From positions 406,506-470,505 of the forward strand of contig ML992508.1 of NCBI GenBank assembly GCA_010093995.1: a stretch of 64,000 nucleotides of DNA. The letters are read 5' to 3'. The stretch's first letter is position 1. Each line of letters starts with the position of its first letter. Position numbers and translations under genes: made by a program. Positions 1-61,700 of this stretch are shown piece by piece. The notes beneath the pieces were generated by a model. It saw nothing but the letters and a program-made list of their open reading frames with translations, was not told where the DNA came from and did not search any database. This stretch comes from Elsinoe ampelina. Taxonomy: Eukaryota.

Positions 1-476
1 GTCCTGGGTATACGGGGATGGGGGTAAGGAGGGTGAACAGTCCCGCGGTAGGGGGAGGGGTGAACGCGTGGGGCAAGGCGAATGGGGAGGGACGAGGAGG
101 TGGTGAGGAGGTGGGGGAGGTGCACGAGCAGGAGGCGAAGGGGAGGGGGAAGAAGGGGAAGAAGCAGGTTTTGTATAATTGGGGGTAGATGGGAGGGAGG
201 AAAAGGACGGGAAAGAGGGGAGAGGGATGCATAGCGAGGGGAAGGCTTGAGATGGATTGGGGTCAGGGAAGGGGAAATGTAGATGATGTGAACATGGCTC
301 ATGGCGTGGTAGGCATGATGATAGAAGCACAGTCATGAAAACGTCAGTTTCGATTCGTCTAGCTTTTCCTTCTCCAATGGCACCATACCTCTAGCGTATA
401 GCAGCCATGCCAAATTTCCATACGTGACCCGACCCACTCCCTATCCGTTCCTCTCTTTCTCTCTCGGCAAAAAGAC

Positions 477-1876
477 CTACTCAACCTCCACGGCCTCCCC
501 CCTCTCCTCCCTCCTCTCACCCCCACCCCTTCCACCCCTATACCCACCCCGTCCCCCCCGTCCCCCCCTCTCAAACCCCCTCCCCTCTCCCTCACCCCTC
601 GCCTCCCTCTCCTTATCCGCGACAAACTCCCTCTTCTGCTCCCCCAACACCCTCAACACCCCCTCCAGACTCCTCTTCCACATGTCCAACCTCGCCGCCA
701 CCTCCCGCCACTGATGCTCCCCGAACACCCTGTACGTCGCGCGATGGATGAGAAACGTCTGGCCGCTCTGGCTGAGTTTGCCCTCCACCAGCCCGGCGCG
801 GATGACGTCGATGACCCACCTCTCCACCTCGGAAACCTCGATGCGGAGGGCCTTGGCGATGGTGGCGTACGGCAAGGTGCGGGACTGGGAGGCGCCGGCC
901 GCGAGGGAAGAGAGAGTGAGGAGGCGCATTTTGGTTTCCAGCGTCTCGCGACCGAGGCCGGATTTGTTGAGGAAGTCGGTGTGGGAGGAGGCGAAGTCGA
1001 GGAAGTCGTCCAGGACTTCGGTCGAGAAGATCTCGAGGAGGTCGAACCAGTCCGACTCCGATTTGCGGAGGGCTTGGATCGAGTCCAGCGAGGTGAGGTC
1101 GGAGAAGTCGAAGGTGGAGGGGGCGTTGAGGGCCGAGGTCAGGGCTTTGATGGAGAGTTTCGAGGCTTCGGGAGTGGAGGCTTCGTCGCTGTCTTGGATG
1201 GTGCGGAGGGCGCGGAGGAGGTAGGCGTAGGATTGTGCATCGTCGCCGCTGTCAGAGGCGACGTCGGAGATGGCGAGGTAGAGTTTGCGGGCGTCTTCTT
1301 TATCGATGTCCCAGTTTTGGAGCCAGAGGTCGAGGGTTTTGAGCTGGGGACGGAGCAGTTCGAAAGATTGGGTGGATTTGCGAATTAGAGTGAGGATGGC
1401 GAGGAGGATGTGGTAGCGGGCTTCGCTTGAGGAAGGAAGGGTGTTGAAAATTGTGGTGAGCACGTTGAGCTGCAGCCCGACAGAGTTGTGCGGTGACGAT
1501 GTCACTGGATTTGACAAATTTGTGCAGATTTTGGGGAGGAACATCTCCGGCTTTGGCGCCTGTCGGACGAGGTGTACGAGCTGGTTGTATGCAGCGAGGA
1601 ATTCTGTCTCGTATCAGCCTCAATGTCCATCATACCTCCCTTCATTCAAACGCCAAACTCACCTCTTTCTGGCGCAGTGCTCAATATTGGGCTGGCCGTC
1701 ACCAGCTTCTTCAATACATCCTCCTTCTTCCCCTCCTGCAATTGTGGTTGAATTTCTGATTGTACCGAAGTCGACTGTCCTTGCGCGCTCGACAGGCCGT
1801 CCAGATACGTCGCGAGCTCATCTGCGAGCTCCTCGAAGGAGCCTTCGACAATGAGCGTGTTCGTAGGGGCGGGCAT
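477..1876 (-). CDS. eIF3m: Eukaryotic translation initiation factor 3 subunit M (PCI domain); 2 exons (1876-1663, 1603-477)
   Basis: MPAPTNTLIVEGSFEELADELA start; GT-AG intron 1662-1604 joins in frame to ORF 477..1544; PCI-type C-terminus KMRLLTLSSLA...VERWVIDVIRAGLVEGKLSQ...HRATYRVFG; RGG-rich tail. Confidence 0.9.
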
Positions 1877-2115
1877 GGTGAATGTGTGGATTGGCGACCG
1901 CCGTGTGTCGTGTGCGATTCCTCGTCGTCCGCACACAAAAACTCAGAGTGAGGTCGCGCGGAATCTTGGCATTTTTCTTATCGATAAGCACGTGCCCGCA
2001 GACTTGCCCCTCTCCACCATCCATCCATCTCATCAAAGCCATCATCAAGCAAATTGTCTTAGACTATTGTATTCTTGTATTCTACATCTATATGTCTTGA
2101 AACTTGGTGATACAT

Positions 2116-11687: not shown

Positions 11688-13430
11688 ATGCTACATCCAG
11701 CGCTCCTGGCTATTGCCAGTCTGGCAGTTACGATCAATGGCTTCCTTCAAGTGCCGCACATGCCCCTCAGCGGCGCTCTCACCAGAAGACAAATTAGATC
11801 AATCAATGGAAGCGATTATCCCGCAGAGATAATCCAGATTCCCATCGACCATTTCAACGCAACAGACGATCGGACGTACAGCAACAGATTTTGGGTGAAT
11901 TCGCAATACTACAAGCCGGGTGGACCAGTCTTCCTGTATGATGCTGGGGAGCAGAACGCGGAGTTCTTGGTACCATACAACCTCTACGAAGTTGCTGGTC
12001 CAGCTGCCGTATTGCAATTGGCGAAGAGATTCAATGGCGTCGCAACCATCTTCGAGCATCGATACTACGGCGGGGTGCCTGTTGGTTCATATCCGGTTCC
12101 TATCGACGAAGAAGGCAGAGCCACTACATATCAGTACCTGAACACCGAACAGGCTCTCGAAGATGCGGTGTATTTTGCGAACAATTTCAAGCCGGCGGGT
12201 CTCGAACAACATTGGGATAAGTTGGTACCATCAAAGGCACCATGGGTTTGGCTCGGCGGTAGCTACCCAGGTATTCGTGGCACTCACCTCCGCGTCAGGA
12301 ACCCAGAGACCTTCTATGCAGCATGGGCTAGCTCGGCGCCAACAGAAGCGGTGGTGGACATGTGGACCTACTTCGCACAGGCAGAAAGATCAATGTTCCG
12401 CAATTGCAGCGCCGACTATCAAGCCGTCACTCGCTATGTCGACTCCGTGCTTGCGAACGGAACCACGCAAGAAGTCTCGGACCTCAAATTCCAGCTATAC
12501 ACAGTAATCGAAGCTAGTCCCGGCGGAGTACAAGCAACAAATCTGTCGCGTTCATCCTCAGATAGGTGGTCCGCCTCAACTGTTGGCAATTATCTACTTA
12601 CGCCGTTCAACTTCTATCAATACTACGGCTTCGAAAGGTCCGTCCAGCCATTCTGCGACATTATGCAAACTTTCAATCGCACTTCTGAGCGTACTACTGA
12701 CAATGGAGGCTTCGCTCCTCCCATCGCCACCGAAGGAGGTATAGCCCAGTCATACAACATCACCGCCGCGTGGAACGCGTTTCTCGTCGGCCTCGCAGAG
12801 ATTGACTACGACAGCATTCCTGGCAATGGTCTCTCAGATCCCAGTCAGGGCTATTCATGGACGTATCAGTATTGCAGCGAATATGGCTACTACCAGCGAG
12901 GTAATCCTGAAAACCCTCGCTCCATCCAATCTCAATTCTACGACCTCGACCTTTTCCAGAGTGGCTGCAACGAAACTTTCCCTGATGACAACCTCCCGCC
13001 TAGTCCAGACGTTGAGAAGTCGAACAAGTATGGTGGATGGTTGATTAACCCTCCTAACACTATGTTCTCCACAGGACAATTCGACCCGTGGCGATCAACT
13101 AGCCCGACATCCATCGATTTCGCTATTGGTGCTCCAGGACGGACATCCGACTCGAAGATCCCTAAATGCAACGTCGCACCGGATCCAAGCACCGTTTTTG
13201 GTATCGAGTATCGCGGCATGGTCCACGTATCCGACCTGCGAGCTCTTCTCGACCTCGAAGATCCGTATCACCAGAATTTCAGCACCGTCGGTTTCGCCAG
13301 CCCTATCGGCGTAGAGCCGTACTACGCCGGTCTTGGTCTGTTCCAGTCGGCATTGGAGGAGTGGCTGCCCTGCTTCGGAAACGGCAGCTACGCGCAGATG
13401 AGGTACCAGCTACCAGGCGCCTCTCCATAA
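11688..13430 (+). CDS. Secreted serine carboxypeptidase, family S28
   Basis: Signal-peptide-like MLHPALLAIASLAV; QIPIDHF, EHRYYG, LNTEQALED, nucleophile GGSYPG, ASSAP, QYCSEYGYYQ, DPW. Confidence 0.9.
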   Translation: MLHPALLAIASLAVTINGFLQVPHMPLSGALTRRQIRSINGSDYPAEIIQIPIDHFNATDDRTYSNRFWVNSQYYKPGGPVFLYDAGEQNAEFLVPYNLYEVAGPAAVLQLAKRFNGVATIFEHRYYGGVPVGSYPVPIDEEGRATTYQYLNTEQALEDAVYFANNFKPAGLEQHWDKLVPSKAPWVWLGGSYPGIRGTHLRVRNPETFYAAWASSAPTEAVVDMWTYFAQAERSMFRNCSADYQAVTRYVDSVLANGTTQEVSDLKFQLYTVIEASPGGVQATNLSRSSSDRWSASTVGNYLLTPFNFYQYYGFERSVQPFCDIMQTFNRTSERTTDNGGFAPPIATEGGIAQSYNITAAWNAFLVGLAEIDYDSIPGNGLSDPSQGYSWTYQYCSEYGYYQRGNPENPRSIQSQFYDLDLFQSGCNETFPDDNLPPSPDVEKSNKYGGWLINPPNTMFSTGQFDPWRSTSPTSIDFAIGAPGRTSDSKIPKCNVAPDPSTVFGIEYRGMVHVSDLRALLDLEDPYHQNFSTVGFASPIGVEPYYAGLGLFQSALEEWLPCFGNGSYAQMRYQLPGASP

Positions 13431-13485
13431 TCCATCTCCGTAGATCCAAAACCCATAGATAGCCTTCCTTAATCAGCCCTGAACC

Positions 13486-14115
13486 TCAACCACTCCATTT
13501 CCTCCACCCCCACCTTCCCACCAACCACATCCCACTCACCACCACCAAGCCTCCCACAACAACGATCAAACTAACCACCCCCCTCATCGCCCACGCATCC
13601 CTCATCTCCAGTCTCGCCACACTCCTCAACTTCTTCCTAATCGGCCAACTCCTCTGCCTCCCGTACTCCGGCGTCCCCTCCCCCCGATTCCAGCTTTCCC
13701 CTCCCTGCTTCCCCTCCCCACCCCTCCCCCCCTGCCCACCCACATCCCACCTCCCGTCCTCCCTCTGCCACGGCTCCCCCCAGTTCCACGGCAACCACTC
13801 CCACCATCCCATCGCGGTGCCGCGTTGAGCGATACGCCACGCGCGGTCCCGCCAGTCGACGTACGAGAGGGAGAAGAGGAAGGAGATGAAGGCCAGAGGG
13901 GCGGTGATGGTGCGGGTCCAGAGAGTGTCGGATGTGTCTGGGGAGGAAGGGGGGGAGGTGAAGGAGGTGAGGGTTGCGGTGTCGGTGCGTTGGAGGGGGT
14001 CGAGGGGGCGGGGTTTGCGGTGTTTGGGGCGGGGTTGGGGAGGGAGAGAAGGAGAGGGGGAGGGAGAGGTGGTCTGGGGTTGGGAGGAGGTGGTGGTGCT
14101 GGTCATTGTGGCCAT
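13486..14115 (-). CDS. Hypothetical small membrane protein (two hydrophobic segments)
   Basis: Open frame from MATMTST; hydrophobic ITAPLAFISFLFSLSYVD and C-terminal VVSLIVVVGGLVVVSGMWLV; start codon uncertain; lies in a compositionally biased island. Confidence 0.55.
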   Translation of the reverse strand: MATMTSTTTSSQPQTTSPSPSPSLPPQPRPKHRKPRPLDPLQRTDTATLTSFTSPPSSPDTSDTLWTRTITAPLAFISFLFSLSYVDWRDRAWRIAQRGTAMGWWEWLPWNWGEPWQREDGRWDVGGQGGRGGEGKQGGESWNRGEGTPEYGRQRSWPIRKKLRSVARLEMRDAWAMRGVVSLIVVVGGLVVVSGMWLVGRWGWRKWSG

Positions 14116-14674
14116 GTGGTGGTGGGGGTGGGGCGATTTGCTGGTGGGAGATCGCTGGATGGTGGGGGTTGAAGATCTGGCGCACGCGACTTTGTGGGTT
14201 GGGGTGATCGGAGAGATGGTGTTGCGCTGAAATTGATGGGATTTGATGTTTTTTTCTGCGATGGTGATTGATGGTTGTTGATGGTGTTTTTGTATCGTGT
14301 GCCGTCGCAATGACGATTGTGTGTTTCTTACCGCCGGATGGGAGCGGGCGGATCCACAATGTGACGATGGACAAGCTGGAGTTGGGGAAAAAAACCGCGG
14401 AAGCAGAGTTTGGATACGTGGAGTCGAGACGCAGTCGCTTTTTCCTCGCATCTGATCTCAGTCTTACAGTATGCAGGGTGGAATGTTGCGTGTCCTGAGG
14501 CGAAGTCAAGGCCATGCACTTGTTGGTGCACGATTGGATCCACATACTGTATACTGCTGCCTGTGGGCCTGACGACAAGTAAGGCACCACTCGTGCCCAA
14601 GTACAGCCCATAAAACTACACTGGAATGAAAGCTGCTACGAGTACACGACATTCGACCAAGCCACTCCGAAAGG

Positions 14675-36066: not shown

Positions 36067-36386
36067 TATGGCATGCCAGTAGGATCTTATCCCCGCGATA
36101 CTGAATGAGACAGGTGGAGTATGCTAATGATTTGAAAACGAGGTTTGCCTTGGACGACGACTAGGCAGAGACGGGCTGTCTATGTAGTATGGTCAATGAG
36201 CAGTGAATTCTATCACGAGCCTTGAGTCGATGTATATCATATCTGGCGATCATATTGATCTGGCGAAAGGAACTAGTTCCCTGGCATGTCCATGTAAAAT
36301 CGTGCCTCGCTATTTGGCATAAGATAATGCCTCACCCTTCTGAAGCCAGCACTGCCCCACCGCCTCTTCCCTGACTCCCATCCGAA

Positions 36387-41184: not shown

Positions 41185-41542
41185 AGTGTAATGATAGTAG
41201 TAAGGGTAATGGCGGATCCTTCGTTGCCTATTCAGACCAGCCTCGGTTATTTGTTCATGGATATCCAATCTCAATTTCGAGAGTATGTTCTAGCATTTCT
41301 AGGAGATCCGACAGGATTGCCAGACGTATTGAAACCAGCATATTTGTCGCCATGTTCTGATAGTATTCCAGACCATGTTGCGGACCTGACAGTGCCTGGA
41401 CTTATCCCACAAGTCTGCCAGGCATGCTGCACGGCGATTCGTATCTGGATCATCCTGGTAGTGTCATTTCATACATGCGTCTATTCCCACCAAACGCCTC
41501 GCCAACTTTTAAGCCTTTCCAAATATGCCCGTCAATTATGCA

Positions 41543-46817: not shown

Positions 46818-46990
46818 GGTTTTGGGAGGCTGGGGGTGGAGGGGGAGAGGGGGGAGGGGGTTGATGGGGGATGGACGGAGGAGTGCTGGAGGGGATGGTG
46901 ATGCTTGGTTCATGATGTGATGTCCGTATAGGGAGGGATACGGATTCGATAGGATGGCTTCTGGTAGTGCCATAGGAAGGGGTTCTCTGC

Positions 46991-48265
46991 TTAGTCTGTA
47001 ATGAACACCCGGCTTTTCCCTCTGTCATGAGCCGTCGATCCTTCTGCGGTACTCGTAGGTCGCCGCAGTGTGTCCTCTACGTATACGCCCACCTGATCCT
47101 CCTCAACTGTAAGTCGTTGCGCCTTGTGCCCGCTCCAACCCGCCTCGCTGACAGAATCCAGTCTCGCATTGCGCATGATGTTCTCTTGGCTGGGAGAATT
47201 CTCAGGATCCAGCTCTGGGCTTCCATACTTCCGGAAGCCTTTCAGTTCGAAACCGGAACCCTGTCTTGCGGAGGCATTGCTTTGTGCTCGCGAGGCTGTG
47301 GTGCCGGTGTATCCCCATGTCTGCAACGAGGGGAAGATCTCCCGTAAGATGGACCACAAAGCAGGCAGGTTGGTGACGTAGACGGAAACGGCAGCTTCGC
47401 GCATGTACCAGAAAGCGTAGTTGTAGGAGAGGAGCCTGGAGGGATCGTCAGACAGGAGCAATGCACGAAGCGAGGAATCAAATGCTTACCACGGCAGATA
47501 GGCATACATCTTGTTTATGATAGCGGCTGCAATGACGAAGAGACCCATGCCAAAGACAATTACCAATGGTACCTTTTGCTGCCATGGTCGTTGGACATTA
47601 ATAACGATGGGTAGACCAACAAGAAGGACTGTAAGGTCGGCGGAAATATTGAAGACGGCTTCGACATAGCCAAAATGGTAATAGGACCAGCATTGAGCTG
47701 TGGTAGAGTTGTTAGAGCAAATAGACCACTTCACACTATTGTGCGAGTGTTACTCACGATTGCTAGCTGGAACGCTCCAGTATGCACTGAATGGTCTGCA
47801 GCTCAGAAACAGGGCCAGGAGGGTTGCGGTGAATCCGATGCCCACCCATATCGAGACTGCAAGGATGTATCGCTCCTGCTTCAACCCCAAAGTGAGTCTC
47901 CGGTAGACAAGAAGCATGATGAGTTTACAGCTCCAGATGGTGAAAAGCATGCCGAATTCGGATACAAGGACATATTTGCTGCCAATGATTCGTTCTCGTG
48001 TTGTCTGGGGTGTCAGTGCCGCTTGTTCCTCCGGTGTCATGAAGTTGCTGCCACCACCTTTGATGACTTTATTCATGGCTACTGTAAGGAGGGTAAACCA
48101 GCCAATCAATTGGAAAGCTATCCAGTCTTCGATCTGGAGGTTTCGAATGCCCTTGGCTCGTCTTGTACGCTCGATCAATCGAATGACAATGATCGCTATG
48201 CCGACACCGTAAAGTGCATACGTCTCGATTGTGAAACGATGGGCAAAGCCATCGGGAAGAGACAT
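46991..48265 (-). CDS. Pth11-like / fungal rhodopsin-domain integral membrane protein; 3 exons
   Basis: E.YALYG.G, RIIGSK, IWSCKL..L..Y.RLT, CRPF.AYW.VP, FNISADL, YMREAAVSVYVTNLP. Confidence 0.85.
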
Positions 48266-51601: not shown

Positions 51602-51840
51602 AGCATCGCAATTGTGTTCTCCACAAGTCCATAGACATTTTTAGTAAATCAGTGACATGAATCTAAGCTCTCCAATGGTGTCAATATCTGAAAGTAGCAA
51701 ATGTCTTTCGCTATGTGTATGTAAAGTTGTGAGCGGGCCATGGAAGTGAGAGAGCCGCATGCCAAGCAATTTCGACCTCGAGCTCTCAAAAAGTTTCACT
51801 CGCCAACGCGATCATACAGCATCACCATTTCTTGCGCATC

Positions 51841-53523
51841 ATGTATGCGCGGCAGACCCTACAGGCTGTTGGACCTGGACGGCCATACTTCCGCCTACTC
51901 GTCCGCCAATGTCGCCGCCAGAGACCAACGCGCTTCTACTCCAATGGACGAGACGACGGAGAGTCTGAGGATAGTCCGCTAGGCAGATCGCGACAGGAAC
52001 GAGCAAATCAGCAATCACAGCAGATCGAGGATTTGGATCGCAGCAACAGAAGAGCGGCAGTGGATGAGACAGGCACATGGGGTGCGGGGTCAGGCCAGCA
52101 GAATGATATCTCGCCTGAAGTAGAGAGGGAACGCACGGCAATGAGGAACGCCACAACACGAGCGACAGCATCGACACAGAGTACAGAGTCCGCAGGTACT
52201 CAAGAGACATCATCCGAAAACGAGGATCCCTCATTCACGCCCATTGCTGAGCTATCGGAGGGCCTAGGTAGGCAACCCAAGCAGCCAACTTTCGATCTCT
52301 CCCCAAGAGATCAAGCTGTTTACGACGCCAACCCGGGGGCTTACTTCGTATTTCAAAATCAGGAAGGGGACCACATTATGCGACCAAAGTCGGAGCTAGA
52401 GTCATTAGGCCTGGAAGTCGACGAGATCGAAGCGATCAACAACGACCCTCGTACCCACCTCGTCCTACAAGACGATGATGGCGAGTACGCGGTCGTGCGT
52501 CTAGAGAATGATGTCCAGGATGAGGACGACTTTGATTTCGCAGATTCACAACCTTCTCCGGGCACGCTCGAGCTTGGACTCTCGGAGATTGACCTTCGCA
52601 GGTACAAGGCCAGTCCTGGAGCCTTTCTCCTCATTTCCTCGCCTGATGGTCCATTACTTAGACCACGATCCGACCTCGGCAAGCTCGGTCTCTCCGAGAT
52701 TGATCGAGACACCTACCTCTCCAACCCGTCCGCATTCATGATCTCGCAAAACAACGACGGCACTCACACTGTCGAGCTCTACAGCAACTTCTCTTCTGAT
52801 CTTGAAGAAGATGATCTTGAAGAAGAAGACGAGGAACGTGTCGTCGACCGGCTCAGCTCCGGTATCGAGATTGAATCGACGACCGAGGAGGAGGATGATG
52901 ACATTGACGAAGCAAACACTCTTCAACGAGACCTTCACGACCTTGAGACCTACGATAAACACGAAGTCACCCCGATCCCATTCTTCCCTGCTGAGACATC
53001 CAAAGAGCAATACCTGCGAGCTGGACGGGGCAATGCTACAATTTCAGCTGCCAACTTTGAAGGCGTCGTGCAAGACCGCATCAAGGCACTGACGGACAAG
53101 AGACAGAACGACTTCCGATATGCACCTGACATTGCGAAGAGGATGATGAGAGGCGGTCTGGTATCATTTCAGTCAGAGAAAGAGCGAGACGAAGTCGTAG
53201 CAGCTGCGCAAGACTACGCATATAAGCTCAAAATATCAGCGAGCAAAGCGCGGAAGGGCAAGGACGAGGTTGCAGAGCATGAGTTTGCACCGCTGAGCGA
53301 CTCCATGCAGTCGGCGATCGTGGCGAGATACGTCAAAGGAAAGTACTGGGAGATGAGCAGGAAGCGGTACGACAGCGATCTGCTGAACCAAGTGTCCGCT
53401 GCGGTTGCGCAGAACAACACCTATCTTGGCCGGGACAGCGCAGTGTTTATGAAGAAGCTGCAAGCGATGGTCGCACCACCGCGGCAAGGGGAAGGGCAAA
53501 AGCAAGCCAGAAAGCAGACGTAG
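51841..53523 (+). CDS. Putative mitochondrial protein with internal 4x repeat (possibly mitoribosome-associated)
   Basis: Arg-rich, acid-free N-terminus ending RPTRFYS (presequence-like); long intronless ORF; acidic middle; helical C-terminus YVKGKY...NNTYLG. Confidence 0.6.
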   Translation: MYARQTLQAVGPGRPYFRLLVRQCRRQRPTRFYSNGRDDGESEDSPLGRSRQERANQQSQQIEDLDRSNRRAAVDETGTWGAGSGQQNDISPEVERERTAMRNATTRATASTQSTESAGTQETSSENEDPSFTPIAELSEGLGRQPKQPTFDLSPRDQAVYDANPGAYFVFQNQEGDHIMRPKSELESLGLEVDEIEAINNDPRTHLVLQDDDGEYAVVRLENDVQDEDDFDFADSQPSPGTLELGLSEIDLRRYKASPGAFLLISSPDGPLLRPRSDLGKLGLSEIDRDTYLSNPSAFMISQNNDGTHTVELYSNFSSDLEEDDLEEEDEERVVDRLSSGIEIESTTEEEDDDIDEANTLQRDLHDLETYDKHEVTPIPFFPAETSKEQYLRAGRGNATISAANFEGVVQDRIKALTDKRQNDFRYAPDIAKRMMRGGLVSFQSEKERDEVVAAAQDYAYKLKISASKARKGKDEVAEHEFAPLSDSMQSAIVARYVKGKYWEMSRKRYDSDLLNQVSAAVAQNNTYLGRDSAVFMKKLQAMVAPPRQGEGQKQARKQT

Positions 53524-53615
53524 ATATCATTGTAGAATACTGTACACCTCAACCCCACCAACGCCACGCTAAGCCATCCCGTCCATTCCCTATCCCATGC
53601 CTTCCAGACGCCTCC

Positions 53616-54882
53616 TCACTTGGCGTGCTTCAAAATCTCCTCATACAAATCCTCCGGGATCTTCCTCACAAAATTAATCGCATACGCCTTGATCTTCGCC
53701 GCCTGCAACGGCGGAAAACTCCTCAGTATCTGATTCGGGCTCGGACTCGCCAATATCTGATCCCTGATCAAGACCAGCTGCGCCACGATACACAACAAAT
53801 TCATATGGCTCCCAAACGCAAAATAAAAATCCCACAGCTGCAACACCTCGGGCAACGGCGGGGTGCAAGCACACATTGTCAAGACGGACGCGAAACCATA
53901 GATCCTCGCCTCCAGCCCTTTGCTCTTGAGGTACGAGCACAGTTTCGGGTCCACGATGGCGAGGATCCGGTCCACGAGCGCCAGTCCCTTGTGCACACCC
54001 TCCATGCTCCCGCGCACGTAACCCGGTACTTCAGCCGTGATGAACCGGTCGAACGCGGCGAAGGCCTCGCTCTCGGAGCGCGCGGCGTAGAGGAACGGCG
54101 CCGCGAGGACGTTCATCCCTTGCACGTAGCCCACGTGCGACGTGTCCCCGGCGTCGCTCCCCTCTGTGCCTGCTACGCTGCCGCGGGGGCGCGTGGTGAT
54201 GGAGCCGGGCGAGGGGAACATGGAGGCCGGGTCGCCGTCGAGGTGTTTGGGGACGGGCAGGGTCGGGGGCGACATCCAGCCGTTGACGCGGGCTTCGTGG
54301 GCGTCGTGGAGTTTCCAGGCCACGGCGTTGAGGACGCGGGTGAGGCTGTTTTCGGTGACGCGGCGGCGGAATAGAGGGTCCGTGGTGAGGGTGCGGAAGG
54401 TGTCGTTGCGGATTTTGGCGTAGGCCGGGGAGGCGCCTTGTTGTACTAGGTCGACGTAGGTTTTGGTCGGGAGGGGGGGGACGTTGAGGAGGACGAGCCA
54501 GGCGTAGATGCGGAGTTCGGACTGGGGTGGTCAGCATTAGATCCAAAGGCTGGCTGTATATGATGGTTGTAGGGAGGTGTCGATATGTGATCGCTTCAGG
54601 CGGAGGGAGGTGTCACAGGCGTTCGCCTCTTCCATCAGATGAGGCGGTCCATTGAGATGTTGTAGAGAACGAAAAAGGATTGGGGCTTCCTGTGAGAGGT
54701 CTCTAGAAACCTCCACATATAAATACAAAATAGACGAATGCAAGGAAAGTCTGTCTACGTACCATGCCGTCGCTATTTGCTGGTATGCCATCAGCAAGCA
54801 CAGAATCTCGTATCTGGTCAAGGCCGCCATGTACATCATTCCCTATCGGTCCGCGGACCAATAATGACTCTAGAGCTGCCAT
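53616..54882 (-). CDS. BUB2: Bub2/Cdc16 TBC-domain GAP (mitotic exit / septation network); 2 exons
   Basis: Exon 1 MAALESLL...DGIPANSDGM (54882-54763), intron 54762-54522, exon 2 SELRIYAW...KIRNDTFRT...YVQGMNVLAAPF...ACTPPLPEVLQLWD. Confidence 0.9.
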
Positions 54883-55288: not shown

Positions 55289-55533
55289 TATCTGAGTGGC
55301 AAAGCGGACTCCTTGCGTGGCGAGTCCGGTTCTAGAGGTCGGAATCAAGCATTCCTCAATCAGCTACCACGTAAACATGGAATTCTTCGCGCACGCGCTT
55401 GCAAGAAAGTTGCACCTTTGATCGTACACTGAACGAACACGACAGACCAACTACAGTCACTCTTTTGGTGTGCCTGAATCGATCGACGGTGTACTTGTGT
55501 ATAACCAAACGAGTGGAAAGCAATCTAGAGGCG

Positions 55534-58171
55534 ATGGCTGTTCAGGGCCGCTGTGGCATTTGGCTACTGCTTGGGTCACTAATACTTGCCTTTTCGGTAA
55601 GTTAGCCTCGAGCAACGATGGTTGAGATTCTACTGACATACTGCTAGCATCTGACAGCAGCGGCGCATGGAGTCTCACACGATCATGTCAACCTACATGT
55701 AGAGCGGCAAGCACCGATAGATAGCGATTGGTGGTACGCTCAGATCAAGCATCAAGGGAGACCGGCTTACGGCAACAATGCGACTTACCAGCCGTGGCGA
55801 AACGTCAAGGACTACGGTGCAAAAGGTGTGTACTTCAGGACTACTTACGAGATGCAATTGACACTTTCCTAGGCGATGGCGTGACGGATGACACCGACGC
55901 CATTAACAACGCTACCTGGGATGGCAACCGGTGTGGATACTTCAACGACTGCAACCAGCAAACGACAGCTCCTGGTATCATCTACTTTCCACCTGGCGTC
56001 TACCGAGTGAGTCGACCGCTGGTTATGTTGTACTACACACAATTTGTCGGTGATGCGGTGGATATGCCAGTGATCAAGGGTCTCCCAAACTTCTTCGGCA
56101 TCGCTTTGCTCGATTCAGATCCATATCTGGCATACGGCTTCAATTGGTATCAAAATCAGAACAACTTCTGGCGACACGTACGAAACTTCGTGATCGACAT
56201 GACTGAGATGCCGACTCGAGGGCGTCAAAGTGGAATCCATTGGCAAGTCTCCCAGGGGACAACTATAATGAATGTCGTATTCAATATGGTCGAAGGAGAC
56301 CCGGAGAATGAACAACAAGGTATCTTCATGGACAATGGGTCTGGTGGTTGGGGTGAGAATCTTGTCTTCAATGGAGGCGGCATTGGTCTCTTTGCTGGGA
56401 ACCAACAGTGGGCCTGGCGGAACATGACCTTCAACCGCTGCCGCACCGCCATCTTCCAGAACTGGAACTGGGTCTTCCTGTACAAGTCAATCACGATCAA
56501 TGACTGTGATGTCGGACTCGATATGACCCAAGGTGGCAATGTCATCACGACTTCTTCAATCATTCTGCAGGACAGTGTCATGAACAATGTCCGCAGAGCT
56601 GGTGTGCTCACGACTTTTGTCGGCAACTCGACCCCGATCGCCGCAGGTACTTTCGTCATGGACAACGTTGATTTTGTCAATACACCTGTGGCACTCGCAT
56701 TCCAGAACGACTCGGTGATCGTCGAAGGCAATCAGCGTATTCAGTCTTTTGTGCAAGGGCGGGCTTACACGGTGTTTGATGGGGAGACCCAGTATGGCAA
56801 CCAGTCTTGCTTCAACCCAACAGTCAATGCTGCTCGCGTGCAAACGCTGGCAGATCCGCCACCAAAGCCCCTCTCCCTGCTTGATGACGATGGAAGGATC
56901 TTCGAGAGAACAAGGGACCAATATATTGGAACTCCGGTCTCTTCCTTTGTCTCAATCATGGATTATGGGTGCATCAATGACGGCTTGACGGATCAAACGC
57001 AATGTGTTCAGGACTTCTTCAACTCTATCCGCGAGGATCAGATCGCCTTCATAGATCATGGAGCGTACATTATTACTGGGACCGTGGAGATACCCATCAG
57101 GATCAAGATGGTCGGAGAGGCATGGTCTTATTTCATGATCGACAATCGGCTGGGCACCTTTAGTGACGAGCTCAACCCAGTTCCTGCTTTCCGAGTTGGC
57201 CGGCCTGGTGAGGAAGGCGCTGTTGAGATGCAAGAAATCATCTTCCAGACCAGAGGCCCCGTACCTGGCGCTATCATGATGGAGTGGAATTTGGCAAACG
57301 AAGGCGGGCGAAAGGGAGCCAACTGTAAGATCATTTCATGTCGTCACAAGTATACACTGACCACAGCCAGGCATGTGGGACGTCCACTGGCGTATCGGTG
57401 GCACGAACGGCACCCAGCTTCAGACACCTCTTTGCACCAAGACACCCAGCCGAGCAACCGAAGTGAACCCTCAATGCATCGCCGCCTTCCTCCTCCTCCA
57501 TCTCACCACTACCGCCCAAGTCTACATGGCCAACAATTGGGGCTGGGTATCCGACCACGAACTCGACCTCTACGACCACGACCAAATCAACCTCTACAAC
57601 GGCCGAGGCATCCTCGTCGAATCCCAAGGCCCCGTCTGGCTCTACGGCACCTCCTTCGAGCACCACGTGCTCTACAACTACCAAATTTCCAACGCCAAAG
57701 AAATCTACATGGGCGTCATCCAAACCGAAACCGCGTAAGTCCCCCTTCCCCCTCCGCCTTCTCCCCCCGCCCTATCCTCCCCTCTAAGTACCACCCAGAT
57801 ACATGCAGTCCAACCCCAACTCCCTCACGCCCTTCACGCGCCAACCCACATGGCACGACCCGGACTTCAGCAATTGCTTCAAATCAACCTGCTACAAAAC
57901 CTGGGGCCTCCGCATCACCGATTCTTCCTACGTGTACCTGTACGGCGGCGGCATGTACAGTTTCTTCGACAACTACGACACCGGGTGCCTGCTGACGACC
58001 AATTGCCAGCAGAACATGGTGAGTCTGGAGCGCAGTCAGGCCGTGTACATGTATGCGGTCAACACGGTGGGGACGGAGAATATGGTCTTGGTCGATGGGG
58101 TGGGGCTGAGTCCGTCGGGCCCGAATGAGAATTCGTTTAGTGATACGATGGCGGTTTTTAATTTTCCGTGA
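55534..58171 (+). CDS. GH55 exo-beta-1,3-glucanase (secreted, two beta-helix domains); about 5 exons
   Basis: Signal peptide; WRNVKDYGAK/GDGVTDDT, YFPPG.Y, YYTQFVGD, NQNNFWRHVRNF, IHWQVSQGT, MWDVHWRIGG, WGWVSDHELD, GRGILVES, IQTET. Confidence 0.92.
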
Positions 58172-58252
58172 GGGAGTCAACGGGGACGATGGGGGGGCGG
58201 TGGTGGAGGGGTGGAGGCGATGGGTGGGACGAAGGGGAGGAGATGAAGGGGA

Positions 58253-58333
58253 GGAGGTGAAAGCCTGGAGGTGAAAGCCTGGAGGTGAAAGCCTGGAGGT
58301 GAAAGCCTGGAGGTGAAAGCCTGGAGGTGAAAG
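58253..58333. repeat. 14-bp minisatellite (GGAGGTGAAAGCCT) x5 plus an 11-bp partial copy
   Basis: Five perfect copies starting at 58253, 58267, 58281, 58295 and 58309, then GGAGGTGAAAG. Confidence 0.95.
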
Positions 58334-58711
58334 GGAGGAGTGAGCAGGAACGCAGCAGGACTTGATAGGAGAGGGGGGAGTAATCTTCGGTATCTTTCAC
58401 ATTTGCATGCAATAGTCTAGTCTGAAATGAATCGTACTTGGTTTCCTTCGTTGGATCTACCCTGCTTCGTGGAAAAATCTAGACACCCTGTCGTCATCCA
58501 AGAAGAGACCCCGACACGCCCGCTCGCTTGCAATTTTAGTTCTATCACTTGACCCAACGAGATCTTTTCTACTTCTTCTTCTCCTCCGTCACTCGCTCTC
58601 TTTCTGACCCCCAACTTCCTCTTCCTACCACGTTCACTACCTCCAGCCATCCCACTTCCCACACCCAAGCCTTCCCTATCCTACTCCCCACGCCTACCCA
58701 CCTTCGGATCA

Positions 58712-61700
58712 TCACCACCCCTCCTCCTCCTCCTCCTCCCTCTTCCGTCCATTCATAGCCTTACTCCTCGCCTGCAACGCCGCCGCCAACCCCGTCGCCA
58801 CCCCACCCCCTTGCGTAGGCGTACTCCTCCCACTATCCCCATTCGCCACTCCACTGTCCCTCGCCCCAGGCGTAGGCGGGGCAGGCTTGCGTCCCGCTGG
58901 CCTCTTGGCCGGCGGCACTGGAGGACCGGGTTTCGTTTTGGCGATGCCCACGCCGTTCGCAGGGGCGGTGGTCGAGCCGTTGGTTTGGGCGGGCGCGGGA
59001 GGGGGTAAGGGCCGGGATGCCGCGGGTGGTGGGGCGGCGCGGACTTCTTCGAGGTAGGCTGAGGGGACCCAGCCGGATTTGGTGTCGGAGGGGTCGCGGG
59101 CGAGCCACCAGCCTGGGAAGGGGGGTTAGTGGTGTTCGTGAAGAGGTGTAAGGAGGAAGAGAGGGGAGGGGAAAAGGCAAGAGGCGGAAGGGGGGCTGCG
59201 AAACGTACCATTGTTCTCCTTTTGGGTGACGATGATGGTGTCGCCTTTGCTGAGGGAGAACTCGCCGCTTGTTTGGCCGACGAAATCGTAGAGGGCTTTA
59301 TAGGTGGGTTCTTTGGGTGGTGCGGCTGCTGCTGGAGGTGGAGGTGGGGGAGGTGCGCGAGAGGATGCGGTGGGGATGACGTGGGCGGTGGCCGCTGATG
59401 CGGCGTGAGATTGAGAGTGGCCATTGACTGCTGCCACCGGAGCGGGCATTGCTTGCGAGACGGCGGCTGACTGACCGCCTCCTGGAAGTGGCCGCGCTTG
59501 TGGAGTCGGTCGTTGTTGTCGCGCTTGTTGCGAGAGCTTACCCATTTGTCCGCCCGGTCCGCCAGCTTTGAGGAGCTTGCCGCTTGTGATTGGCTTGGCT
59601 GCAACTTGCTTGCCTTTTGGTGTGGGTTTCGAGACCGAGTTTGGCGGTTCTCCTGGGCCGGTGTGGATAGTCCCAGACTTGTAGTTGTCGTCCCGAGAGA
59701 CGGAAGGATCTTTCACAACCTTGACAGTTGCTGGCTTGCCCGGCTTCTTGTTGTATTGAATTTGATCGGCAATGCGTAGATCGACAGTCCCTCTCGAGGC
59801 TTTCTTAAGGTAGGTGAAGAATTCCGTCTTGAATATACATGACAGAAGTGGGTCCGGCTCCTGCTGTGAGCCCACACCTAGTGAGAACCAGTCGTCCTTG
59901 AGCGTGGATGCGCTGACATACTTGATCGCACCGAGTGGGATCGTTCGTTCAGCCATGATCTGCACAGACTTGTTGACAAGAGCCTGCTTGACGATATAGA
60001 CACTCCTTTGTGTCAAGATGAGCGTGCGTGGTTCTGGTTTACTCGATCGTCCGAGTTTGGACACAAGCGTTTCCGCTCTGCATGAGAAGAGCACGCCTTC
60101 AGCGGCATTCAAGCCGATCGAGTTGCGGATCATCTCACCGGGACCACCTGGATTGGCGATACCAAGGTAATCTCCCAGGAACCTCCTGTAGCCGACCAGA
60201 CTGTACCTCCGTCGCTCCTTGCGGCCGCCAAGCACTTTGTGGCCCTCATCACGGAGCTCGATGAATTCCATTCCGCCAGTCTTGCGTCTCCAGAAGCGCT
60301 GGATGCGGGTGGCGCACTCGATCCGGTACCGCAAGTAGTTCCTCCAAGCGCGCTGAATGCGAATAGCCATATTGTGCCAGTACCGATCTCGCATGGTCTC
60401 CAAAGCAAAGAGAGTCTCTGGCGTCTTGATGAACACCTTGGTCACACCCATCTGGAACTCCTCCTGAGGTATGCTGGTGTCCTTCAAGATCTGCTTGACT
60501 CCAGACTTCGGGTCGCCCGACCACGTGTACTCGCCGGCATATGAAGTTTTTGGCGAAAGTAGGTAGAAGCGCTCAACGAACTTCTCGAATGTTTGTCTCG
60601 AAGCGAAACCAGCTCGCCTGATTCTGACGTTCTCCTGCAAACCAAGATATTTGATCTGATGCATGACATTTGGCACGTTGTATTCGGTAGGTGACTTGTT
60701 CTCGTTCGGCTTGATCGTTCGAATGTATGACGGAGAAGCTTTCATGAGAGTCGAAACAAGGTCATTGGCGGAAGCCTTGATCTTGTCGCCAGCTGTCGGA
60801 GGTCGTCGCTTGTCGTCCTGATTGACCTGGTGCGGGAAGAGAGTGTGGATGAAGCTGTTCTGACTCTGGCCCATCAGATTGAGAATATCCTTGAGCAATT
60901 GATCCTTGTTCTTGTCCGTCATGCCATCCACAGCGTACGACACATCACCGGCGTAATGCTTGATGACGAATTGTCCTTGTCGCGGCTGGAAGTTTGGATT
61001 TGACGAGAGCACATTTAGCCGCTGCACAAATGTCTGATCCGCTGCAGCTGGATCTGCGTGTGCAGTCGCACAAGCGTCATTCAGAGCGGCGAAAACTCCA
61101 GGCGGTCTCTTCTCTTCGATCAACTCGCACACGACCTTGTTGTCAAAGTACTTGATCGGTGTCCACTTGATCTGTTCTCGCTCATACTCATCTTGCTCGG
61201 CCTTCAATGTGAGCTGAATGAAGATTTGCTGCAACTTCTCGTTGACGTAGTTGATGCACAGCTGTTCAAAACTGTTCTTCTCGAAAATCTCGAATCCGTA
61301 AATATCCAAGATCCCGATCGAGTATGCGACTTGACCTTTTGCTCTAAGCGATTGGTTTACTCGTTGTACAAGCCAGTCAAACATGTTGTAGTAAATGGCT
61401 TTCGACAGAGCGTCTCGTACAGACATGGCCTGAGCGGGATTCAGCGGAACGTCGTATACCGACCCTCGTCGGCCTCCTCTGCTTGTCTCGATCAGTCTTG
61501 TCGTGAGCACTTTGTTTACGTGCTTTGCTTCGACTTCGAGCAGGTATGCCACAAAATCCACCACCGACTGGTCTTGCACCGCCGCGTTCCCTTGGTCGTC
61601 CTCGGAAAATGTGCAGTTGCCCAGCCACAAAATGGCTGACAACATCCTGAATACCTCGTCCTGCTCTTGCTGCGACATTCCAATGACCTTCATCGCATTG

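What the first reader, a model, noticed from the sequence alone, without database searches (positions are those of the whole stretch)
430..59400. Recurring C-rich to G/T-rich strand-skew switch islands (about 10 in 64 kb)
Seen: blocks where the + strand is first almost G-free (C/T/A runs) and then almost C-free (G/T/A runs), with an abrupt switch. Approximate spans: 430-720|850-1450, 13440-13810|13870-14300, 22860-23130|23200-23560, 28160-28700|28740-28970, 36330-36570|36660-36900, 40250-40900|40950-41200, 45850-46490|46550-46960, 53540-53850|54200-54530, 57420-57900|58020-58380, 58550-58870|58960-59400, plus a G-rich half at 1-300. They run through exons, introns and UTRs, occur in genes on both strands, and mostly sit at 3' ends of convergent gene pairs. 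The pattern is its own reverse complement. Inference: either a strand-asymmetric mutational footprint centred on a fixed point (the polarity matches the leading-strand G/T excess seen at replication origins; recombination sites are an alternative), or selection for R-loop/G4/fold-back structure at transcript ends. Sequence alone cannot separate these, and I cannot confirm novelty.
Basis: partly seen in the sequence, partly recalled or inferred. Interest (0 to 1): 0.72.

Follow-up and report, generated by a model that had tools for sequence, protein, structure and literature searches.

The report
Strand-skew flip at fungal gene ends
The last thousand bases of many genes in this plant-pathogenic fungus are first very C-rich and then very G-rich on the coding strand, which is a strong local form of a fungal gene-end bias described in 2011 whose cause is still unknown.

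Summary
All 10 listed C-rich|G-rich islands exist: 27 blocks with |GC skew| above 0.45, against 0.18 expected in Markov simulations.

The islands are not centred on free-standing points. In 9 of 10, the switch lies 153-564 nt (median 248) upstream of one gene's stop codon. The coding strand is C-rich for about 400-600 nt. It is then G-rich through the stop codon and the 3' UTR.

The skew is strongest at four-fold degenerate sites (C 68%, then G 60%). It is also present in introns and UTRs. It exceeds synonymous-codon shuffles in 7 of 7 genes. RNA contigs from other studies carry the same sequence.

The closest proteins are from Elsinoe (Dothideomycetes). Other ascomycete contigs show the same architecture, but some lineages lack the flip at orthologous synonymous sites.

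This matches the "opposite GC skews at 5' and 3' ends of fungal genes" of McLean & Tirosh (2011), here in a sharp, extreme form. Strong islands occurred only at convergently arranged genes (6 of 14 against 0 of 9 tandem).

The replication-origin and recombination-hotspot readings are disfavoured. A transcription-linked cause, possibly R-loop termination, is the best guess but is unproven.

I class it as a new member of a known kind, of modest interest.

The parts
1..371 (+). G-rich block. Presumed terminal G-rich zone (3' UTR) of a + strand gene that lies off the window. It abuts the eIF3m island.
   Evidence: GC skew +0.63. G 46%, C 11%. The gene itself was not seen, so its orientation is inferred.
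337..1546 (-). eIF3m island. On the sense (-) strand it is C-rich at 1546-850 and G-rich at 790-337. The switch is at 839, 360 nt upstream of the stop (477-479).
   Evidence: Pfam PCI and eIF3m_C_helix on ORF 480-1613. Four-fold site skew is -0.63, then +0.60. Switch position.
13368..14355 (-). Island in the C-terminal tail of a Fung_rhodopsin-domain gene (-). The switch is at 13853, 214 nt upstream of the stop of ORF 13640-14635.
   Evidence: The choice of reading frame for the tail is not confirmed by homology.
22838..23471 (+). Weaker island inside gene j (CDS about 22311-24475, intron about 22860-22916). The switch is at 23139, 1,334 nt upstream of the stop. This is the exception to the 3'-end rule.
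   Evidence: Intron composition in the sense strand is G7 C28 A7 T15. The gene model was read from the sequence and has no RNA support.
28135..29031 (+). MFS transporter island. The switch is at 28693, 265 nt upstream of the stop (28958-28960).
   Evidence: Pfam MFS_1 on 28148-28957..
36276..36900 (-). PX/DUF3818 gene island. The switch is at 36584, 195 nt upstream of the stop (36387-36389).
40352..41236 (+). Short-chain dehydrogenase island. The switch is at 40934, 248 nt upstream of the stop (41182-41184).
   Evidence: An RNA contig with the intron 40275-40329 removed covers it.
41461..41671 (-). G-rich (sense) terminal zone of the convergent Man-6-P-receptor-like gene. It has no C-rich partner.
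45926..47017 (+). Cytochrome P450 island, the strongest one. The switch is at 46552, 263 nt upstream of the stop (46815-46817), just before the haem-binding loop. An N gap lies at 46741-46750.
   Evidence: An RNA contig of run X3 covers 44191-46698 with 0 differences.
53503..54625 (-). RabGAP-TBC gene island with a GC-rich unskewed spacer. The switch is at 54182, 564 nt upstream of the stop (53616-53618).
57617..58444 (+). Island of the pectate-lyase-fold (RHGA-like) gene. The switch is at 57982, 187 nt upstream of the true stop (58169-58171). The C-rich half includes the intron 57735-57798.
   Evidence: RNA joints 57734>57799 and 57324>57371. Intron composition is G6 C36 A8 T14..
58470..59466 (-). 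Myosin-1 island. The switch is at 58867, 153 nt upstream of the stop (58712-58714). The intron 59112-59207 lies in the C-rich (sense) half. The G-rich half ends where RNA contigs end (58442/58457).
62985..63170 (-). G-rich (sense) zone at the stop of the Polo-kinase gene (tandem arrangement). It has no C-rich partner.

Best explanation
Each island is the last ~1 kb of one gene's transcription unit.

On the coding strand the DNA is C-rich and G-poor for about 400-600 nt. About 250 nt before the stop codon it flips. From there it is G-rich and C-poor through the stop codon and the 3' UTR, and for the one gene whose end could be read (Myo1) it runs to where RNA contigs stop.

This is the 'opposite GC skew' of fungal genes: a C-biased gene body with a G-biased zone that peaks at the stop codon and reaches into the UTR (McLean & Tirosh 2011). 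It appears here in an Elsinoe-like Dothideomycete in an unusually sharp and strong form.

What is shown:
- The bias acts on nucleotides and not on proteins. It is seen at four-fold sites, introns and UTRs, it exceeds codon shuffles, and the protein is conserved.
- It is anchored to the gene end.
- It is mirrored in composition.
- It recurs in other ascomycete lineages but is absent at orthologous synonymous sites in some.
- In this sample the strong form is limited to convergently arranged genes.

What is inferred is the cause. I take it to be co-transcriptional. The G-rich non-template strand of the last 400-500 nt favours RNA:DNA hybrids and G-quadruplexes, which slow and end RNA polymerase II before it meets the convergent neighbour. 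The preceding C-rich zone is G-rich for a polymerase entering in antisense, so it presents the same barrier to read-through from that neighbour. The skew would be kept by selection, possibly reinforced by mutation of the exposed strand.

I put about 0.85 on the anatomical reading (a transcript-end feature of the known fungal kind). I put about 0.3-0.35 on the R-loop terminator mechanism in particular.
For: Offset from stop codons:
- 9 of 10 switches lie 153-564 nt upstream of a stop (median 248). The chance of at least 9 of 10 is about 1e-6.
- The same offsets appear in two other lineages: L050 at 118-279 nt in 4 genes, and L011 at 225 and 429 nt.

Sense-strand profile over 22 genes:
- Mean skew falls to -0.21 at -600 from the stop, then rises to +0.25 at -150.

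Four-fold degenerate sites:
- C-half: G68 C466 A94 T55.
- G-half: G180 C44 A36 T41.
- Rest of the genes: G283 C379 A243 T168.

Introns are skewed. Two of the three were confirmed by RNA joints: G6 C36 and G8 C49. The third, G7 C28, comes from a model read off the sequence.

Synonymous-codon shuffles never reach the observed contrast: 0 of 1000 in each of 7 of 7 genes.

The eIF3m protein is conserved through its island.

Myo1 RNA contigs from two studies end at 58442 and 58457, which is the outer edge of the G-rich half.

Orthologous eIF3m residues 275-345, four-fold skew:
- Window: +0.52.
- Some lineages: +0.4 to +0.75.
- Others: -0.5 to -1.0.
- The flip is therefore not dictated by the protein.

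Strong islands by gene arrangement:
- 6 of 14 clearly convergent genes against 0 of 9 tandem genes (Fisher p = 0.048).
- Pooled with other lineages: 10 of 33 against 0 of 15 (p = 0.02).

R-loop and G4 potential:
- 12 of 14 G4 motifs lie in the skew blocks, which cover 15% of the window.
- About 15 of the 18 stretches that meet an R-loop-forming rule overlap skew blocks of matching polarity. The count was made by eye, and the rule was recalled.

The published description matches feature by feature (PMC3315797, parts 1-3 of 4 read).
Against: No R-loop, termination or antisense data exist here, so the mechanism is inference only.

One island (22838-23471) lies mid-gene, 1,334 nt from the stop.

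The convergent link rests on small numbers:
- A rank test of contrast, convergent against tandem, is not significant (p = 0.59). Partners of island genes score negative.
- Two neighbour orientations (eIF3m, PX) are inferred, and one (MFS) is unknown.

In several other lineages the strongest synonymous flip in eIF3m occurs where the only long downstream ORF within about 1-2 kb is on the same strand (L043, L064, L029). Several lineages whose long downstream ORFs lie on the opposite strand lack the flip (L021, L012, L058). These ORFs were not confirmed by Pfam.

In humans, terminal GC skew is enriched at tandem rather than convergent neighbours (PMC3787257, passages).

Skews of 0.6-0.8 at silent sites could also come from a strong mutation or repair asymmetry, without any function.

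The published fungal average has its strongest C-bias at the 5' end. Here it peaks just before the switch.
Confidence: 0.55

Rival explanations
1. This is a pure mutational footprint. [quoted passage not shown] They may be amplified where both strands are transcribed at convergent gene ends. The skew itself has no function.
For: The skew is strongest at four-fold sites and is present in introns and UTRs.

Composition at four-fold sites is close to a strand mirror: C68/A14/G10/T8% against G60/T14/C15/A12%.

The G+T against C+A polarity is the one known for exposed non-template strands. This rests on established knowledge (Green et al. 2003), which is recalled.

Lineages differ at orthologous silent sites.

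The hypothesis is in print (PMC3315797).
Against: The amplitude, |skew| of 0.6-0.8, is far above transcription-linked skews known elsewhere (recalled).

T is not enriched in the G-rich halves at four-fold sites (14% against 16% in the rest), so cytosine deamination alone does not fit.

Tandem genes also terminate but lack strong islands (0 of 9).

GC rises in both halves, although the few strain differences seen mostly have A/T in the window and G/C in the other strain, in no known direction.
Confidence: 0.3
2. The islands mark meiotic recombination (double-strand-break) hot spots. GC-biased gene conversion plus strand-specific repair of resected DNA builds a mirrored skew around the break.
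For: GC content is raised in the islands, at 0.57-0.70 against 0.52.

The halves, at 400-600 nt, are of the order of fungal resection tracts (recalled).

Strand-asymmetric mutation around human hot spots is documented (PMC7615360, passages).
Against: With a break at the switch, the strand left single-stranded should lose C and A. That gives G-rich on the left and C-rich on the right, which is the opposite of what is seen.

With a break at the outer G|C junctions, only the G-rich halves are explained, and single islands lack the mirror half on the other side.

The fixed offset from stop codons inside coding sequence is not where nucleosome-free hot spots are expected.
Confidence: 0.06
3. The switch points are replication origins. 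The skew is the leading/lagging-strand asymmetry.
For: The polarity (C-rich then G-rich on the top strand) is the polarity found at origins. This is established knowledge, also cited in PMC3315797.
Against: There are ten switches in 64 kb, two of them 885 nt apart.

The skew decays within about 500 nt rather than across a replicon.

Nine of 10 switches sit at a set distance from a stop codon inside coding sequence.

The same offset is seen at genes of other lineages with different neighbours.
Confidence: 0.03
4. This is an adaptive control of polymerase flow by nucleotide supply. CTP is scarce, so C-rich RNA is made slowly and C-poor 3' ends quickly, which reduces polymerase collisions (the adaptive hypothesis of McLean & Tirosh).
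For: The idea was proposed for the same pattern (PMC3315797).

The terminal zone is C-poor on the coding strand.
Against: The hypothesis predicts slow synthesis at the 5' end. Here the most C-rich zone lies directly before the 3' zone.

It does not explain the sharp switch or the link with convergent neighbours.

Nothing here tests nucleotide pools.
Confidence: 0.04
5. The two halves pair with each other in the RNA or DNA, as a long fold-back hairpin at the transcript end or as a cruciform. The structure is the selected feature.
For: A C-rich stretch followed by a G-rich stretch on one strand can pair in a loose way.

G-poor and C-poor halves are each unable to form internal G-C pairs (inference).
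Against: There is no sequence complementarity beyond what composition gives: 8 islands, local-alignment z from -0.5 to 2.6, shared 7-mers z from -2.1 to 2.0.

Introns carry the skew although they are absent from the mature RNA.

Confidence: 0.03

Closest known systems
Opposite GC skews at the 5' and 3' ends of fungal genes (McLean & Tirosh, BMC Genomics 2011, PMC3315797)
   Same: [quoted passage not shown] That zone peaks around the stop codon and extends into the 3' UTR. The pattern is seen at four-fold degenerate sites, shifts amino-acid use and varies between lineages. The paper's data set included Dothideomycetes (Pyrenophora, Stagonospora). The cause is unresolved.
   Different: The paper reports genome-wide averages, described as gradients with the strongest C-bias at the promoter or 5' UTR.

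Here the signal is discrete and gene-specific, and it flips within about 50-100 nt. It reaches |skew| of 0.6-0.8, and the C-bias peaks directly upstream of the flip. It is much stronger at four-fold sites than at codon positions 1-2, whereas the paper found similar magnitudes.

In this sample the strong form occurs only at convergently arranged genes, a factor the paper does not treat.

Elsinoe was not in its species list.
Terminal GC skew and R-loops at 3' ends of human genes (Ginno et al., Genome Res 2013, PMC3787257)
   Same: There is co-oriented positive GC skew at gene ends, sometimes starting before the poly(A) signal. It is enriched where neighbouring genes are close. It was proposed to aid termination through R-loops, and the paper includes an example at two convergent genes.
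   Different: In humans the skew lies mostly downstream of coding sequence, is weaker, has no preceding C-rich zone, and is enriched at tandem rather than convergent neighbours. R-loops were measured there and not here.
C-skew around transcription start sites of plants and fungi (Fujimori et al. 2005, PMC555766; Bourras et al. 2012, PMC3411245, for the Dothideomycete Leptosphaeria maculans)
   Same: Unpaired C-rich (sense) blocks lie at or just upstream of 5' ends in the window: 21551-21915, 40068-40226 and 62523-62765 (the last in antisense).
   Different: Those are single, 5'-proximal C-rich tracts. They do not account for the paired C|G islands near stop codons.
GC-skew jumps at replication origins (bacteria; mammalian N-domains)
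   Same: The sign of the switch on the top strand is the same.
   Different: The scale (kb to Mb), the persistence across the replicon, the low amplitude in eukaryotes and the independence from stop codons all differ. None of these fits here.

Membership tests
Fungal gene-end opposite GC skew (McLean & Tirosh 2011) | The coding strand is C-biased upstream and G-biased at the 3' end of the same gene. | tested here: met
   Mean over 22 genes is -0.21 at -600 and +0.25 at -150 from the stop. Nine genes have a contrast of at least 0.45.
Fungal gene-end opposite GC skew (McLean & Tirosh 2011) | The positive skew is strongest around the stop codon and extends into the 3' UTR. | tested here: met
   G-rich zones span about -250 to +150/+270 around stops. 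The UTR stretch 58172-58444 is G-rich, and 58470-58711 is G-rich in sense.
Fungal gene-end opposite GC skew (McLean & Tirosh 2011) | The skew is present at four-fold degenerate positions, so it is not explained by protein function. | tested here: met
   Four-fold skew is -0.75 in the C-half, +0.61 in the G-half and -0.15 in the rest. Codon shuffles reach the observed contrast in 0 of 1000 trials in 7 of 7 genes.
Fungal gene-end opposite GC skew (McLean & Tirosh 2011) | The skew shifts amino-acid usage towards residues with skewed codons. | tested here: met
   With the amino-acid sequence kept and codons shuffled, the contrast remains 0.03-0.97. Tails rich in P/S/T/L change to tails rich in G/W/V/R in the P450 and rhodopsin-domain genes.
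Fungal gene-end opposite GC skew (McLean & Tirosh 2011) | The strongest C-bias is at the promoter or 5' UTR and declines along the gene. | tested here: inconclusive
   In island genes the C-bias peaks at -900 to -300 from the stop. Single C-rich blocks do sit at or just upstream of some 5' ends. 5' ends were not analysed systematically.
R-loop-linked terminal GC skew (Ginno et al. 2013) | There is co-oriented G-rich skew on the non-template strand at the gene end, able to form R-loops by sequence rules. | tested here: met
   Eighteen stretches meet a simplified R-loop-forming rule (rule recalled). About 15 overlap skew blocks of matching polarity, counted by eye. Twelve of 14 G4 motifs lie in the blocks.
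R-loop-linked terminal GC skew (Ginno et al. 2013) | RNA:DNA hybrids are detected at the site (DRIP) and have an effect on termination. | not testable with these tools
   No DRIP or nascent-RNA data exist. The RNA runs are held as unstranded contigs only.
R-loop-linked terminal GC skew (Ginno et al. 2013) | The skew is enriched at closely spaced neighbours. | tested here: inconclusive
   Strong islands occur in 6 of 14 convergent against 0 of 9 tandem genes (p = 0.048). Pooled, the figures are 10 of 33 against 0 of 15 (p = 0.02). In humans the enrichment is at tandem neighbours.
Replication-origin skew switch | The skew of one sign persists over the replicon, and switches are spaced tens of kb apart. 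| tested here: not met
   The skew returns to about 0 within roughly 500 nt. There are ten switches in 64 kb, two of them 885 nt apart.
Replication-origin skew switch | The position is independent of gene structure, or intergenic. | tested here: not met
   All ten switches lie within coding ORFs. Nine lie 153-564 nt upstream of a stop codon.
Meiotic double-strand-break hot-spot asymmetry | The strand left single-stranded after 5'-3' resection loses C and A (Hinch et al. 2023). | tested here: not met
   The expected top strand is C-poor on the left and G-poor on the right of the break. The observed pattern at the switch is the reverse.

The most novel reading that the evidence does not exclude
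The paired halves form a two-way R-loop or G-quadruplex terminator that evolved at convergent gene ends in some ascomycete lineages.

The G-rich half stops the gene's own polymerase. The C-rich half, which is G-rich in antisense, stops polymerases reading through from the convergent neighbour. Usually one partner of a pair 'owns' the island.

On this reading, the published genome-wide 'opposite GC skew' of fungi is the average of such discrete elements.

Orthologous genes carry or lack the flip at silent sites in different lineages. This gives a natural experiment on a cause that has been open since 2011.
Probability: 0.22. Interest if true: 0.6.

Novelty: new member of a known kind. Interest (0 to 1): 0.3.

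Why it matters
The fungal gene-end skew has been in print since 2011. Its cause is unknown, and follow-up has been scant: only 5 papers in the held library contain the title phrase.

This window shows that, at least in an Elsinoe-like fungus, the effect is not a faint average. It is a sharp, gene-specific flip, strong enough to invert synonymous codon choice inside conserved genes such as eIF3m and a P450, and to reshape protein tails.

Three practical consequences follow:
- Codon-usage and selection analyses (dN/dS, codon optimality, GC3) in such fungi are biased near 3' ends.
- Gene finders and assemblers meet G-runs and spurious open frames there. One example is an N gap inside a G-rich half.
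- The possible restriction to convergent genes, together with lineage-to-lineage presence or absence at orthologous silent sites, gives a concrete way to test mutation bias against R-loop-based termination.

Tried and rejected
Whole genome. None is held for this window, so no genome-wide metagene analysis was possible.

Fold-back pairing. It was replaced by local-alignment and shared-7-mer tests, which gave no complementarity beyond composition.

Motif at the switch. No common motif was found. CGTACG lies within 100 nt of a switch in 4 of its 16 occurrences, but at only 3 of 10 switches. I took this as a by-product of the CpG-rich balanced spacer.

Polymorphism. Contigs of other strains (runs X4, X7) differ from the window at only about 35 places in 20 kb, 24 of them in one gene. 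Five lie in islands (53820, 58789, 58835, 58841, 58987). That is too few to polarise, and there is no outgroup.

RNA evidence. No listed holder is on record as RNA. Runs X3, X4 and X7 behave as RNA, with GT..AG joints, but they are unstranded contigs. Transcript ends, antisense RNA and expression level could therefore not be read. Parts without cover were not interpreted.

Neighbour orientation in metagenome loci. Raw ORFs alone were too noisy. Pfam annotation of 8 loci was used instead.

Earlier notes of this scan. There was nothing on this genome or on look-alike stretches. Two word hits concern bacterial skews and do not bear on this finding.

Literature. Searches for a fungal description of paired islands or a convergent-gene link returned only McLean & Tirosh 2011 as directly relevant. 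Subscription journals are not covered by the library.

Assembly artefact. I rejected this. Reading frames and conserved protein motifs run through the islands. RNA contigs from other studies match base for base.

Repeat or mobile element. I rejected this. The islands lie in unrelated single-copy genes and share only composition.

Full report
OBSERVATION

The window has 52.5-53% G+C and an almost balanced overall G/C count. A 300-nt profile shows repeated excursions of GC skew to between -0.75 and +0.71.

I scanned with a 150-nt window, a threshold of |skew| above 0.45 and a minimum length of 150 nt. This gave 27 blocks covering 9,431 bases. Fifty first-order Markov simulations gave a mean of 0.18 blocks and at most 2.

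- Three pairs are weaker: 22838-23471, 28135-29031 and 36276-36900.
- One pair, 53503-54625, has an unskewed GC-rich spacer of about 500 nt.
- In the strongest halves one of G or C makes up 42-54% of bases and the other 11-18%.
- Islands are also richer in G+C, at 0.57-0.70.

WHERE THE ISLANDS LIE

I scanned stop-to-stop ORFs with Pfam. The result is a gene-dense filamentous-ascomycete region with Zn2Cys6 factors, Fungal_trans, Fung_rhodopsin, a P450, myosin-1, SET1, eIF3m and others.

Each island belongs to one gene. I placed each switch at the minimum of cumulative G minus C. On that measure the switch lies upstream of the gene's stop codon by the following distances:

| Gene | Distance upstream of stop (nt) |
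|---|---|
| eIF3m | 360 |
| Rhodopsin-domain gene | 214 |
| MFS | 265 |
| PX/DUF3818 | 195 |
| SDR | 248 |
| P450 | 263 |
| RabGAP | 564 |
| Pectate-lyase-fold gene (true stop 58169-58171, after the intron shown by RNA joints) | 187 |
| Myosin-1 | 153 |

- The median is 248 nt.
- The tenth island lies 1,334 nt upstream of its gene's stop and is an exception.
- A random point has a chance of about 0.17 of falling in such a zone. Nine or more of ten has a probability of about 1e-6.

Read on the coding strand, every gene is first C-rich and then G-rich. The G-rich zone runs through the stop codon into the 3' UTR. For myosin-1, RNA contigs of two studies end at 58442 and 58457. That is the outer edge of its G-rich zone and the junction with the neighbour's island.

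The mean sense-strand profile over 22 genes falls to -0.21 at -600 from the stop and rises to +0.25 at -150.

THE BIAS ACTS ON NUCLEOTIDES

At four-fold degenerate sites of nine ORF segments, from eight genes, the counts are:

| Region | G | C | A | T | Skew |
|---|---|---|---|---|---|
| C-rich halves | 68 | 466 | 94 | 55 | -0.75 |
| G-rich halves | 180 | 44 | 36 | 41 | +0.61 |
| Rest of these genes | 283 | 379 | 243 | 168 | -0.15 |

Codon positions 1 and 2 follow more weakly. The two compositions are nearly strand mirrors of each other.

Introns inside islands are skewed in the same sense as the exons around them. Sense-strand counts are G6 C36, G8 C49 and G7 C28. Two of these introns are confirmed by RNA joints.

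I shuffled synonymous codons within each ORF, keeping the protein and the ORF's overall codon usage. This never reached the observed contrast: 0 of 1000 shuffles in each of 7 of 7 genes. The shuffled means of 0.03-0.97 show that amino-acid composition is also shifted.

The eIF3m protein is nonetheless well conserved through its island.

The skew does not vanish at silent or intronic sites, and it exceeds codon-shuffled controls.

IS THE SEQUENCE REAL?

DNA contigs of run X1, which may be the source of the window, agree with it. This is not independent evidence.

Spliced contigs of runs X3, X4 and X7 come from other studies and show GT..AG joints. They cover the islands with no or few differences. 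One X3 contig spans 44191-46698 across the P450 switch with 0 differences.

Raw long reads could not be examined.

TAXON AND RELATIVES

The closest eIF3m proteins are named:
- Elsinoe batatas, 98% identity
- E. fawcettii, 87%
- Sphaceloma murrayae, 83%
- E. australis, 81%
- Myriangium duriaei, 76%

The window is therefore from an Elsinoe-like member of the Myriangiales (Dothideomycetes).

I fetched eighty metagenome loci that encode eIF3m relatives of 49-67% identity, 837 kb in all.
- They carry skew blocks at a similar density: 5.6 per 10 kb against 4.2 in the window.
- In some lineages the blocks are long and paired in the C-then-G order (the L050 group, L011, L014, L065). In others they are short and single (L028, L032, L003, L058).
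- In L050 four annotated genes (M19 peptidase, Na/Ca exchanger, eIF3m, PAN1-like) have the switch 118-279 nt upstream of the stop. In L011 two genes have it at 225 and 429 nt.

At the orthologous eIF3m residues 275-345 the four-fold skew differs sharply between lineages:
- +0.52 in the window
- +0.4 to +0.75 in several lineages (L006/7, L023, L036/37, L043-46, L056, L062/64)
- -0.5 to -1.0 in others (L004, L012, L019, L021, L026, L032)

The flip at silent sites is therefore lineage-dependent and not imposed by the protein.

WHAT IS KNOWN

McLean & Tirosh (BMC Genomics 2011, PMC3315797; I read parts 1-3 of 4) describe this pattern as an average over genes of 64 fungi, including filamentous ascomycetes.
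- The coding strand is C-biased over most of the gene.
- The pattern is visible at four-fold sites and shifts amino-acid use.
- It varies between species.
- Two untested explanations are offered: phase-specific mutation pressure, and C-avoidance linked to CTP supply and polymerase flow.

The finding is therefore a member of a known kind.

Seven literature searches turned up no description of the following differences seen here:
- The signal is discrete and gene-specific rather than a gradient.
- It flips within about 50-100 nt.
- The C-bias peaks directly before the flip rather than at the 5' end.
- It is much stronger at four-fold sites than at positions 1-2.

The nearest functional concept is the terminal GC skew of human genes, which is linked to R-loops and termination (Ginno et al. 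2013, PMC3787257, passages read).

GENE ARRANGEMENT

I defined a strong island as a contrast of at least 0.45 between the zone from -300 to +150 and the zone from -900 to -300 around the stop. The counts are:

| Comparison | Convergent genes | Tandem genes | Fisher p |
|---|---|---|---|
| Window, clearly convergent only | 6 of 14 | 0 of 9 | 0.048 |
| Window, adding two inferred orientations | 8 of 16 | 0 of 9 | 0.022 |
| Pooled with Pfam-annotated genes of other lineages | 10 of 33 | 0 of 15 | 0.02 |

Within convergent pairs usually one partner owns the island and the other scores about zero or negative. This is why a rank test is not significant (p = 0.59).

There is evidence against a simple rule. 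Some lineages with a strong silent-site flip in eIF3m have only a same-strand long ORF 0.5-1.9 kb downstream (L043, L064, L029). Some whose long downstream ORFs lie on the opposite strand lack the flip (L021, L012, L058). These ORFs were not confirmed by Pfam.

I regard the link as suggestive only.

MECHANISM

The polarity is top strand C-rich on the left and G-rich on the right. That is the polarity expected if the top strand is the exposed or non-template strand to the right of the switch and the bottom strand is exposed to the left. A replication origin would give this, and so would outward-directed transcription.

An origin does not fit:
- There are ten switches in 64 kb, two of them 885 nt apart.
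- The skew decays within about 500 nt.
- The switches sit at a fixed offset from stop codons inside coding sequence.
- The same offset is seen in other lineages with different neighbours.

A resected double-strand break at the switch predicts the opposite sign, because the single-stranded 3' tail loses C and A (Hinch et al. 2023, PMC7615360, passages). Breaks at the outer junctions would explain only the G-rich halves and would require mirror halves that single islands lack.

Specific fold-back pairing is not supported.

What remains is a transcription-linked cause.
- The G-rich halves meet sequence rules for R-loop formation and hold most of the G4 motifs. In the C-rich halves the same is true of the antisense strand (the R-loop rule is recalled).
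- My preferred model, held at about 0.3-0.35, is a two-way barrier. The gene's own polymerase meets a G-rich non-template strand in the last 400-500 nt. A polymerase reading through from the convergent neighbour meets one in the C-rich half.
- A pure mutation or repair asymmetry is nearly as likely, at about 0.3.
- Nothing here measures hybrids, pausing, antisense RNA or substitution direction.

VERDICT

The point-centred interpretation (origin or recombination site) is not supported. The transcript-end interpretation is supported as to place.

The feature is a strong new instance of a fungal gene-end skew already in print. Two aspects may be new: the sharp paired form and the possible restriction to convergent genes. 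Both need genome-wide confirmation.

Noticed in passing
window 51850-53553: An ORF without a Pfam match (51733-53520, + strand) differs from the contigs of two other runs (X4, X7) at 24 places plus 3 small indels in 1.7 kb. The rest of the 20 kb laid shows only about 10 differences. This is a locally hypervariable gene between strains.
   Followed up: no
window 48194-48223: DNA contigs of run X1 break here with a 30-nt overlap. One contig runs on into 21 letters unlike the window, whose end resembles a loxP arm (resemblance recalled, not tested). This could be an engineered insertion, or vector sequence in that sample, inside the Fung_rhodopsin-like gene.
   Followed up: no
window 46741-46750 and 46769: A 10-N gap lies inside the G-rich half of the P450 island. 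The X1 DNA contig lacks 2 letters at 46769. G-runs here seem hard to assemble.
   Followed up: partly
window 58255-58330: A tandem repeat of a 14-nt unit, about five copies, lies in the G-rich 3' UTR of the pectate-lyase-fold gene. DNA contigs of X1 break at 58234/58304.
   Followed up: no
window 19139-21498 and 22311-24475: Two neighbouring + strand genes without Pfam matches end in similar peptides (…RFDHEIAMLRSVA… and …RFEHEAAMIRSVA…), so they are probably tandem paralogues. The second gene's stop (24473-24475) overlaps the stop region (24461-24463) of the convergent Zn2Cys6 factor gene.
   Followed up: no
window 21551-21915, 40068-40226, 62523-62765: Unpaired blocks that are C-rich on the sense strand sit at or just upstream of 5' ends (gene j, SDR, myosin-1). 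This is the known C-skew near fungal transcription starts (PMC3411245 passages).
   Followed up: partly
L005, L011, L014, L016; L036, L050: The gene order eIF3m(+), adenylate kinase(-), DUF7730(+) is confirmed by Pfam in L011, L014 and L016. In L005 the kinase is inferred from unannotated ORFs only. A PAN1-like gene lies convergent to eIF3m in L050 but upstream in tandem in L036.
   Followed up: partly
L080: This fungal contig has GC3 of 0.98-1.00 in eIF3m and many spurious long ORFs on both strands. It is an extreme GC3 lineage.
   Followed up: no
window 55502: The RNA contig of run X4 carries 16 extra letters after 55502, just upstream of the pectate-lyase-fold gene. This is a strain indel or an alternative splice form.
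   Followed up: no
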